Source: a virus. Taken from it: 18,713 bases of DNA. The notes beneath the pieces were generated by a model. It had not been told where the DNA came from. It worked only from the letters and a program-made list of their open reading frames with translations, and made no database searches. The position numbers and the translations under genes were made by a program. Position 1 is the first letter of the stretch; each line of letters starts with the position of its first letter. The stretch is from UHGV virus genome UHGV-0067992, one strand, 5' to 3'. Below, piece by piece: positions 17,840-18,229 of the stretch.

Positions 17840-18229
17840 ATGATGTTTCTGAAACAGGGCACGTTTAATTATGAAAAACAGTCCGTGGTGCTCAGTGAGC
17901 TGTCCGGGCTGCAGAGAATTGAATATCTGGCGTTTCTTCAGCAGCGAACGGCAAAGTTTGATGCCGAAGAGGGAGAACTGCCGGAGGCTGAACGACAGAT
18001 TGCTTTTCTGCGGATGGGGATGGATATCAATGCCTGGCTGGTTTCCCGCTCACTGTGGAATGCGGATCAGTCTAAGGATGTAGAGACGCTTTGCGCATCC
18101 GTTATTACAACATGGTCGTATGATGCCCTGGGTGCGGGGGCGGAGATGGTTCTGTCGCTGAGCGGTATGGGGGCCATTGATAATGCCGTGGATGATGAGC
18201 ATGAGGCGCTGACGCCGGAAAAGTCCTGA
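17840..18229 (+). CDS. G: Tail assembly chaperone, lambda gpG-like
   Basis: LSELSGLQRIEYLAF...TTW...LSLSGM resembles lambda G (LSELSALQRIEHLAL...TTW...LRLSGM); start ATG 17840 or 17843. Confidence 0.8.
   Translation: MMFLKQGTFNYEKQSVVLSELSGLQRIEYLAFLQQRTAKFDAEEGELPEAERQIAFLRMGMDINAWLVSRSLWNADQSKDVETLCASVITTWSYDALGAGAEMVLSLSGMGAIDNAVDDEHEALTPEKS

What the first reader, a model, noticed from the sequence alone, without database searches (positions are those of the whole stretch)
18205..18229. G-T programmed frameshift window with a non-canonical slippery heptamer
The T frame is open only from 18205 and overlaps the last 25 nt of G, so any -1 shift must occur there. The only A-rich slip candidate is G GAA AAG (zero-frame codons GAA AAG at 18218-18223), which allows perfect A-site re-pairing (AAG to AAA) but needs a mismatched P-site re-pairing (GAA to GGA), unlike lambda G GGA AAG. 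This may be a single-tRNA slippage variant.
Basis: partly seen in the sequence, partly recalled or inferred. Interest (0 to 1): 0.4.

Follow-up and report, generated by a model that had tools for sequence, protein, structure and literature searches.

The report
Tail chaperone G-T frameshift site
This is the -1 ribosomal frameshift site that joins the phage tail-assembly genes G and T; its off-rule slippery sequence G GAA AAG is real and conserved, but the same sequence is already annotated as the slip site in phages N15, phi80 and LLS.

Summary
G (17840/17843-18229, PF06894) is overlapped by the -1 frame, which is open from 18205 and carries a Phage_tail_T domain. The only re-pairable motif in the 25-nt overlap is G GAA AAG (18217-18223).

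It lies at exactly the position of lambda's proven G GGA AAG, one G-to-A change away. It is invariant in every close and distant relative of this E. coli/Salmonella clade that I read, although the linker just upstream is hypervariable.

Several relatives have no start codon in the T frame before the conserved T motif, and ATG 18238 has no Shine-Dalgarno sequence. T is therefore most likely made only as a G-T fusion (predicted 241 aa, aligning end to end with lambda gpGT).

The heptamer is not new. GenBank annotates GGAAAAG as the -1 slip site of the homologous genes in N15, phi80 and LLS. By protein C-termini, about two thirds of the G family carry the matching Glu-Lys. Across the family only A_AAR (Lys) is universal, which supports slippage driven by tRNA-Lys with imperfect P-site re-pairing.

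No conserved downstream RNA structure was found. A weak Shine-Dalgarno-like GAGG lies 10 nt upstream and is clade-specific.

Verdict: an ordinary, unannotated member of a known recoding class.

The parts
17840..18229 (+). Gene G, the tail assembly chaperone (129 aa from ATG 17840; 128 aa from ATG 17843, the start used by PGAP and by the homologues that begin MFLK). The stop is TGA 18227-18229, followed by C.
   Evidence: PF06894 Phage_TAC_2, E 3.7e-40; translation; PGAP annotation of the same gene.
18205..18229 (+). Overlap between G and the open part of the -1 (T) frame. Any -1 shift must occur here.
   Evidence: The -1 frame has a TGA at 18202-18204. Salmonella-type relatives narrow the window to 19 nt and L225/L263/L271 to 16 nt, always around the same motif.
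18217..18223 (+). Slippery heptamer G GAA AAG. tRNA-Glu sits in the P site on GAA and tRNA-Lys in the A site on AAG. After the -1 shift they pair with GGA (G.U at the middle position) and AAA.
   Evidence: Gapless alignment to lambda G GGA AAG. Invariant in 38 of 38 distinct DNA contexts of the GGAAAAG type. Annotated as the slip site in N15, phi80 and LLS.
18203..18206 (+). Shine-Dalgarno-like GAGG with a 10-nt spacer to the heptamer. A candidate weak upstream stimulator (inferred).
   Evidence: Anti-SD duplex -5.6 kcal/mol. In the clade the mean is -6.8 against -4.1 +/- 0.75 after codon shuffling, 0 of 500 shuffles as low. Absent from the N15 group and from the GGGAAAG relatives.
18223..18567 (+). 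T segment read in the -1 frame after the shift. The first codon is GTC 18223-18225 and the stop is at 18565-18567. The predicted GT fusion is 241 aa, with junction ...ALTPEK|VLTREMQF...
   Evidence: PF06223 Phage_tail_T, E 5.1e-15. The fusion aligns end to end with lambda gpGT (E 3e-43) and N15 GT (E 3e-39).
18238..18240 (+). ATG used as the T start in public annotation. Probably not a real initiation site.
   Evidence: No SD (-1.1 kcal/mol, against -6 for G and -10.8 for H). This Met is not conserved, and L109, phi80, LLS, mEp043, lambda and L093 have no start codon before the LAREF motif.
17803..17829 (+). Intrinsic terminator between V and G (7 G-C pairs followed by T6). It would lower G/GT/H transcription relative to V.
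   Evidence: Annotated in mEp460. N15 has one at the same place.
18539..18713 (+). Start of the tape measure gene H. ATG 18539 has a strong SD and overlaps the end of T by 29 nt. H runs off the window.
   Evidence: Annotation of mEp460; SD -10.8 kcal/mol.

Best explanation
This is the programmed -1 ribosomal frameshift site of a lambda-type tail assembly chaperone pair.

Most ribosomes translate G to TGA 18227 and release gpG. A small fraction slip back one nucleotide while GAA (tRNA-Glu) is in the P site and AAG (tRNA-Lys) is in the A site. tRNA-Lys re-pairs perfectly with AAA. tRNA-Glu re-pairs with GGA through G-C, G.U and A-U. The ribosome then reads GTC CTG ACG... through the G stop and makes a 241-aa G-T fusion with junction ...TPEK-VLTRE...

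By analogy with lambda, the G part binds the tape measure protein and the T part recruits the major tail protein.

Shown: the coordinates, the homology and the conservation. Inferred: that the slip happens, its rate, and the share contributed by each tRNA. The driving event is tRNA-Lys slippage on A_AAG. P-site re-pairing helps but is not indispensable.
For: 1. G is PF06894 and T is PF06223, and they sit between the major tail protein V and the tape measure gene H.

2. The heptamer lies at the same codon position as lambda's proven G GGA AAG. From there the -1 frames align without gaps: GKVFDGELSFALKLARE in lambda against GKVLTREMQFVMRLARE here.

3. The fusion aligns end to end with lambda gpGT and N15 GT across the junction.

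4. CCG GAA AAG is invariant at synonymous positions across E. coli/Salmonella relatives down to 55% G identity, while the preceding linker varies freely. No GAG, no AAA and no CCA/CCT/CCC variant was seen. This is despite AAG being the minor Lys codon in E. coli (0.24; PMC3296357).

5. Sister lineages carry TPGKS* with canonical G GGA AAG in the same architecture (L095-L097).

6. The same GGAAAAG is annotated as the -1 slip site in N15, phi80 (with a gpG-T join) and LLS.

7. T-frame residues upstream of ATG 18238 are conserved as protein, following [VA][LF]xxE.xF, and the Glu uses both GAA and GAG.

8. Several relatives lack any start codon before the T domain.

9. ATG 18238 has no SD.

10. 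Plaque-forming phages (mEp460, Ayreon, Tritos) carry the identical site.

11. A_AAG is the most shift-prone tetramer in E. coli (PMC4066793).
Against: No direct evidence that a GT protein is made in this lineage.

In a reconstituted E. coli system, AUG GAA AAG gave mainly zero-frame product and served as the 'unfavourable' control against G GGA AAG (PMC6924986).

A_AAG without a stimulator is near background in vivo (PMC4066793).

No downstream structure was found here. Fold z-scores were -1.19 and +0.92, and the alignment fold gave -3.8 kcal/mol with no covariation.

Every public record of this clade that I opened (mEp460, Ayreon, Tritos and one PGAP genome) annotates T as a separate gene. 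In this window an in-frame ATG lies 8 nt after the G stop.
Confidence: 0.85

Rival explanations
1. T is translated on its own from ATG 18238 (or ATG 18250), for example by termination-reinitiation after the G stop 8 nt upstream, as all current annotations imply. No fusion is needed.
For: In-frame ATGs exist at 18238 and 18250. GenBank and PGAP annotate T from 18238. The stop and the ATG are close enough for coupling.
Against: ATG 18238 has no SD (-1.1 kcal/mol) and ATG 18250 only a weak one (-4.3). Met 18238 is absent from many clade members, such as L190, L114, L098 and L100. L109, phi80, LLS, mEp043, L093 and lambda have no ATG, GTG or TTG before the conserved LAREF motif. The codons between the heptamer and the ATG are conserved as protein. 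In lambda, T is made only as gpGT, and the G part supplies the tape-measure binding (PMC5009743).
Confidence: 0.06
2. The shift is a pure single-tRNA event. Only tRNA-Lys slips on A_AAG, either in the A site (the NNA_AAG 'hexanucleotide' mechanism) or in the P site while the A site waits, and the G at heptamer position 1 plays no part.
For: Across the family only A_AAR is universal. The P-site codon can be GCA (G GCA AAA), which cannot re-pair. L225 has TTA GAA AAG, with position 1 an A. In many relatives the Lys codon is the last sense codon before the stop, which would favour P-site slippage during slow termination. NNA_AAG frameshifting is established in E. coli (PMC5009743).
Against: Position 1 is G in all other GGAAAAG contexts even though it is the third base of four-fold or mixed codons (CCG, GCG, GTG, CTG, TTG). 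That fits a contribution from G-C pairing of tRNA-Glu, although shared ancestry could also explain it. Here one sense codon (TCC) separates AAG from the stop, so the stop is not in the A site when Lys is in the P site.
Confidence: 0.3
3. The G-to-A change is a decay mutation in a defective prophage. The site no longer works, and GT is not made.
For: In vitro the sequence is poorly slippery (PMC6924986). The module sits in many resident prophages: 1846 of 5426 complete E. coli genomes.
Against: The identical site is present in isolated, plaque-forming phages (mEp460, Ayreon, Tritos, HannyBb, cdtI) and in N15 and phi80. It is invariant over deep divergence. By protein C-termini it is the majority form of the family: 45 of 66 cluster representatives.
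Confidence: 0.02
4. The frame change happens at the RNA level, by RNA polymerase slippage on the A run.
For: The motif contains four consecutive A.
Against: Known transcriptional slippage needs much longer homopolymer runs, usually 7 or more (established knowledge; not tested here). Relatives with GGGAAAG have only three A yet keep the same architecture.
Confidence: 0.01

Closest known systems
Phage lambda G / G-T -1 programmed frameshift at G GGA AAG (Levin, Hendrix and Casjens 1993, as cited in PMC5009743 and PMC3296357)
   Same: Same gene families (PF06894, PF06223), the same V-G-T-H gene order and the same slip position relative to the T domain. The A-site event is the same (tRNA-Lys, AAG to AAA). 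No conserved downstream RNA structure was found here.
   Different: The third base of the heptamer is A, not G, so the P-site tRNA is tRNA-Glu re-pairing with a middle G.U instead of tRNA-Gly re-pairing by wobble. The G stop is one codon after the heptamer rather than five. G is only 32% identical to lambda G.
Phages N15, phi80, LLS (and HK225, mEp043): G-T with GGAAAAG; annotated as the slip site in the first three
   Same: Identical heptamer G GAA AAG at the homologous position. In N15, phi80 and LLS it is annotated in GenBank as the -1 slippery sequence. HK225 and mEp043 carry it without a slip-site feature.
   Different: Different clade, with about 36% identity over the GT fusion for N15. 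The preceding codon is GCG or GTG rather than CCG. The stop is five codons downstream. There is no SD-like element upstream. I found no experimental measurement for these phages in the papers available.
NNA_AAG 'hexanucleotide' and A_AAG tetramer -1 frameshift motifs of E. coli (IS3, IS1222, B. subtilis cdd; Licznar et al. 2003 as summarised in PMC5009743; Sharma et al. 2014, PMC4066793)
   Same: Slippage is driven by tRNA-Lys moving from AAG to AAA, with a P-site tRNA that cannot re-pair perfectly. The output is low.
   Different: Those cases rely on a downstream pseudoknot or hairpin, and none is detectable here. The Licznar paper itself could not be read, so the rank of GAA among NNA codons is unknown to me.
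E. coli dnaX A AAA AAG with an upstream Shine-Dalgarno stimulator
   Same: An SD-like sequence about 10 nt 5' of a Lys-based slip site.
   Different: Here the SD-like element is only GAGG (-5.6 kcal/mol), is clade-specific and is untested. The dnaX downstream stem-loop has no counterpart.
Actinophage tail-chaperone heptamer GGGGGAA (PRFect paper, PMC10885494)
   Same: The same GAA-to-GGA re-pairing by tRNA-Glu with a G.U middle pair, in the same kind of gene.
   Different: There it is the A-site tRNA, in unrelated chaperone families and in high-GC hosts.

Membership tests
Lambda-type tail assembly chaperone G/GT with -1 programmed frameshift | The upstream ORF is a gpG homologue lying between the major tail protein gene and the tape measure gene | tested here: met
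   PF06894, E 3.7e-40. V (PF16461 + Big_2) is upstream and H downstream.
Lambda-type tail assembly chaperone G/GT with -1 programmed frameshift | The downstream ORF is in the -1 frame, overlaps the 3' end of G and carries the T domain | tested here: met
   The -1 frame is open over 18205-18567. PF06223, E 5.1e-15.
Lambda-type tail assembly chaperone G/GT with -1 programmed frameshift | A slippery site in the overlap at the position homologous to lambda's | tested here: met
   Gapless register with lambda 510-516 of L004, and with N15 and phi80.
Lambda-type tail assembly chaperone G/GT with -1 programmed frameshift | T has no independent, conserved translation start | tested here: met
   No SD at ATG 18238. 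Start codons are absent in L109, phi80, LLS, mEp043, L093 and lambda.
Lambda-type tail assembly chaperone G/GT with -1 programmed frameshift | A GT fusion protein is made at a few per cent of G and is required for tail assembly | not testable with these tools
   Needs a western blot or mass spectrometry on infected or induced cells, plus genetics.
Canonical X_XXY_YYZ tandem-slippage heptamer | Both the P-site and the A-site tRNA keep standard or wobble pairing after the shift (XXX identical) | tested here: not met
   In G GAA AAG, position 3 differs from positions 1-2. P-site re-pairing needs a G.U pair at the middle codon position.
NNA_AAG hexanucleotide / A_AAG tetramer frameshift motifs | A_AAG in the zero-frame register, read by the single E. 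coli tRNA-Lys | tested here: met
   Codons GAA AAG at 18218-18223.
NNA_AAG hexanucleotide / A_AAG tetramer frameshift motifs | A downstream stimulatory hairpin or pseudoknot 5-9 nt after the motif | tested here: not met
   Fold z-scores -1.19 and +0.92. The alignment fold of 14 relatives gave -3.78 kcal/mol with covariation -0.27.
dnaX-type frameshift signal | An upstream SD-like sequence about 10-14 nt 5' of the slip site that stimulates the -1 shift | tested here: inconclusive
   GAGG at 18203-18206 with a 10-nt spacer. It is enriched in the clade against codon shuffles (0 of 500), but the sequences are related, the element is weak, and it is absent from the N15 group.

The most novel reading that the evidence does not exclude
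G GAA AAG is a sequence that biochemists use as the poorly slippery control. It may nonetheless be the predominant natural slip site of the whole lambda G/T chaperone family, with canonical G GGA AAG the minority.

In the window's E. coli/Salmonella clade, the weak heptamer may be compensated by a dnaX-like upstream Shine-Dalgarno element at 10-nt spacing.

Both slipping tRNAs (Glu and Lys) carry mnm5s2U34. The G:GT ratio of these very common prophages could therefore be unusually sensitive to the host's tRNA thiolation state.
Probability: 0.3. Interest if true: 0.45.

Novelty: new member of a known kind. Interest (0 to 1): 0.25.

Why it matters
The practical value is in annotation. This G-T module is present in 1846 of 5426 complete E. 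coli genomes. In the records I opened it is annotated as two separate genes, with T starting at an ATG that probably is not used. The real product is most likely a 241-aa fusion.

For the frameshifting field it adds nothing new in kind. It does show that nature widely uses a heptamer with a second-position G.U in the P site, one treated as 'unfavourable' in vitro. That makes these phages a convenient natural system for measuring how much P-site re-pairing contributes in vivo.

Tried and rejected
- **Downstream stimulatory RNA.** Single-sequence folds of 18217-18320 and 18224-18275 were no better than shuffles. RNAalifold on 14 relatives gave no consensus structure or covariation. Rejected.
- **Rfam.** No frameshift element matched. 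The only hit in the window is a cspA thermoregulator elsewhere.
- **Natural G-T fused ORFs as proof of the junction.** P0027 and P0044 turned out to be singleton internal deletions, not 1-nt frame corrections. Uninformative.
- **Sampling diversity.** IMG/VR scans with single proteins or with the clade alignment were swamped by near-identical prophages. The genome-contig scan gave only 13 loci.
- **What did give diversity.** Useful diversity came from the look-up of encoding contigs, the phage tblastn search, the 50%-cluster profile search and an alignment of Leu-type relatives.
- **Literature.** Licznar 2003 (EMBO J) and the phi80 genome paper are not held. Xu, Hendrix and Duda 2004 turned up only as a citation in the reviews I read, and I did not attempt to retrieve it. 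Full-text searches for GGAAAAG with phage or slippery terms returned only the EF-G paper. I therefore could not establish whether anyone has measured frameshifting on this heptamer in a phage.
- **Ribosome queueing at the UGA-C stop.** Considered as a stimulator and set aside on geometry, by inference only. A trailing ribosome would sit about 10 codons upstream, not on the heptamer.

Full report
**What is in the sequence**

The window is a lambdoid phage of the mEp460/cdtI type; 17790-18600 is 97.9-99.5% identical to 17 phage records.

G runs from ATG 17840 (or 17843) to TGA 18227-18229 and is a lambda gpG homologue (PF06894, E 3.7e-40). The -1 frame has a TGA at 18202-18204, is open from 18205 to the stop at 18565-18567, and carries a Phage_tail_T domain (PF06223, E 5.1e-15).

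The major tail protein V lies upstream. The tape measure gene H starts at ATG 18539.

The overlap 18205-18229 reads GCG CTG ACG CCG GAA AAG TCC TGA in the G frame. Only AAG (to AAA) can re-pair perfectly one base back. GAA would re-pair with GGA through a middle G.U pair. Every coordinate in the finding is correct.

**Positional homology with lambda**

Lambda's proven slip site G GGA AAG (L004 510-516) and the window's G GAA AAG (18217-18223) occupy the same position. From there the two -1 frames align without a gap: GKVFDGELSFALKLARE against GKVLTREMQFVMRLARE.

A fusion built by slipping at 18223 is 241 aa long. It aligns end to end, through the junction, with lambda gpGT (E 3e-43) and N15 GT (E 3e-39).

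**Conservation**

- All 80 closest IMG/VR relatives carry CCGGAAAAG.
- G homologues from E. coli and Salmonella down to 55% identity almost all end in [T/S]PEK[S/P/F]*, while the acidic linker just before is hypervariable in sequence and length.
- Wherever I obtained DNA, the codons are CCG GAA AAG, with no synonymous variant.
- AAG is the minor Lys codon in E. coli (0.24; PMC3296357).
- The -1 frame is not read upstream of the slip, so dual coding cannot explain this invariance; a constraint on the slip site can.
- In Salmonella-type loci the -1 frame opens only 19 nt before the end of G, and in L225/L263/L271 only 16 nt. This pins the shift to the same motif.
- Serratia and Symbiopectobacterium relatives have the same architecture with canonical ACG CCG GGA AAG TCT TAG. 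The two heptamers therefore interconvert by one substitution.

**T is not an independent gene**

- ATG 18238 has essentially no Shine-Dalgarno sequence: -1.1 kcal/mol, against about -6 for G, -10.8 for H and -11.9 for V.
- That Met is missing from many clade members.
- L109, phi80, LLS, mEp043, L093 and lambda have no ATG, GTG or TTG in the T frame before the conserved LAREF motif.
- The T-frame residues between the heptamer and the ATG follow a family-wide pattern, [VA][LF]xxE.xF, and the Glu uses both GAA and GAG. That indicates selection on the protein.
- The records I opened (mEp460, Ayreon, Tritos and one PGAP genome) nevertheless annotate T separately.

**It is already known in kind**

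GenBank annotates GGAAAAG as the -1 slippery sequence of the homologous genes in three records:

| Phage | Accession | Annotation |
|---|---|---|
| N15 | NC_001901 | slip site at 10027-10033 |
| phi80 | FN582354 | joined gpG-T CDS |
| LLS | PQ299149 | 'minus-one programmed translational frameshift site GGAAAAG' |

The family uses several motifs at the same position:

| Motif | Where found |
|---|---|
| G GGA AAG | lambda, some Stx2a phages, Serratia-type relatives |
| G GAA AAG | this clade, N15, phi80, HK225, mEp043, L092, L093 and many IMG/VR contigs |
| A AAA AAG | Stx1 and Stx2_14040 phages |
| C CCA AAA | Vibrio phages |
| G GCA AAA TAG and G GAA AAA TAG | Ewingella-type relatives |
| A GAA AAG | L225 |

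A profile search of 1.84 billion cluster representatives returned 66 full-length G proteins. Of these, 45 have [A/L/P]-Glu-Lys zero, one or five residues before the stop. Five have Gly-Lys, four Lys-Lys, four Ala-Lys and two Pro-Lys. This is a protein-level proxy, and the profile came from this clade, so some bias is possible. Even so, Glu-Lys is clearly not the exception.

**Mechanism**

The one universal feature is A_AAR decoded by tRNA-Lys, so Lys slippage is the core event. This matches E. coli rules: A_AAG is by far the best tetramer, reaching 5.6% with a pseudoknot but staying near background alone (PMC4066793). NNA_AAG motifs are used by IS elements (PMC5009743).

The G at heptamer position 1 is kept in almost every context (CCG, GCG, GTG, CTG, TTG). 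That fits a contribution from tRNA-Glu re-pairing with GGA (G-C, G.U, A-U). Relatives with TTA GAA AAG and with GCA AAA show that this contribution is not indispensable.

In a reconstituted system, AUG GAA AAG gave mainly zero-frame product and was the 'unfavourable' control against G GGA AAG (PMC6924986). I therefore expect a lower rate than lambda's ~4% (PMC3296357), unless something stimulates the shift.

No downstream structure is supported.

An SD-like GAGG at 18203-18206 lies 10 nt upstream of the heptamer. Across 13 distinct clade sequences, anti-SD pairing peaks at that spacing. The mean is -6.8 kcal/mol, against -4.1 +/- 0.75 for codon-shuffled linkers, and 0 of 500 shuffles were as low. 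The element survives Glu/Gln/Gly replacements as [C/G]AGG or GGGG. However, the sequences share ancestry, the element is weak, and the N15 group lacks it. I treat it as a hypothesis.

**Rivals**

- Independent T initiation is unlikely, for the reasons above.
- Decay of the site is excluded by its presence in plaque-forming phages and by its deep conservation.
- Transcriptional slippage on four A is implausible.
- Whether the shift is tandem near-cognate or Lys-only cannot be decided from sequence. Both give the same junction, ...PEK-VLT...

**Verdict**

The site is an ordinary member of the lambda G-T recoding class, with a heptamer already recorded for N15 and phi80. It is unannotated in this very common lineage, which occurs in 1846 of 5426 complete E. 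coli genomes.

Noticed in passing
window 6250-6635 (+): Full-length match to the Rfam cspA thermoregulator (RF01766; 112.8 bits against a gathering score of 78), with a 70-aa ORF at 6396-6608. This looks like a phage-borne cold-shock protein gene with its regulatory 5' leader.
   Followed up: no
window 17803-17829 (+): Strong intrinsic terminator (7 G-C pairs followed by T6) in the 57-nt gap between V and G. It is annotated in mEp460, and N15 has one at the same place. It would set G/GT/H transcript levels below V.
   Followed up: partly
window 18203-18206 and the same spacing in L098, L100, L109, L114, L185-L191, L092: A Shine-Dalgarno-like GAGG/GGAG lies 6-12 nt 5' of the heptamer. It is enriched against codon-shuffled linkers in the E. 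coli/Salmonella clade (0 of 500 shuffles as low). It is absent from the N15/phi80 group and from the canonical GGGAAAG relatives.
   Followed up: partly
L225 (about 1270-1290), L263, L271; L207-L216, L094, L110-L113: In some relatives the Lys codon is the last sense codon before the stop: TTG or TTA GAA AAG TAA, CTG GCA AAA TAG, CTG GAA AAA TAG. L225 has A rather than G at heptamer position 1. These would need P-site Lys slippage at a stop codon, or a pure single-tRNA shift.
   Followed up: partly
proteins P0121-P0239: Among 66 full-length 50%-identity cluster representatives of the gpG family, 45 carry [A/L/P]-Glu-Lys near the C-terminus and only 5 carry lambda's Gly-Lys. The stop falls 0, 1 or 5 codons after the Lys, giving three discrete architectures.
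   Followed up: partly
proteins P0027 and P0044; P0001, P0003: A few database ORFs fuse G and T, or duplicate or extend G. The fusions are singleton internal deletions rather than frame-corrected junctions, so they are probably assembly or deletion variants.
   Followed up: yes
window 18441-18458 (+): A small hairpin, GGCTG-ATTT-CAGCC followed by TTTT, lies inside T. The mEp460 record annotates it as a rho-independent terminator, but it is weak and was not picked up by the terminator scan.
   Followed up: no
window 18539-18567 (+): The tape measure gene H starts 29 nt before the T stop, in the G reading frame, behind a strong SD (GGAGGTG, -10.8 kcal/mol) embedded in the conserved GGVRYG end of T.
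   Followed up: no
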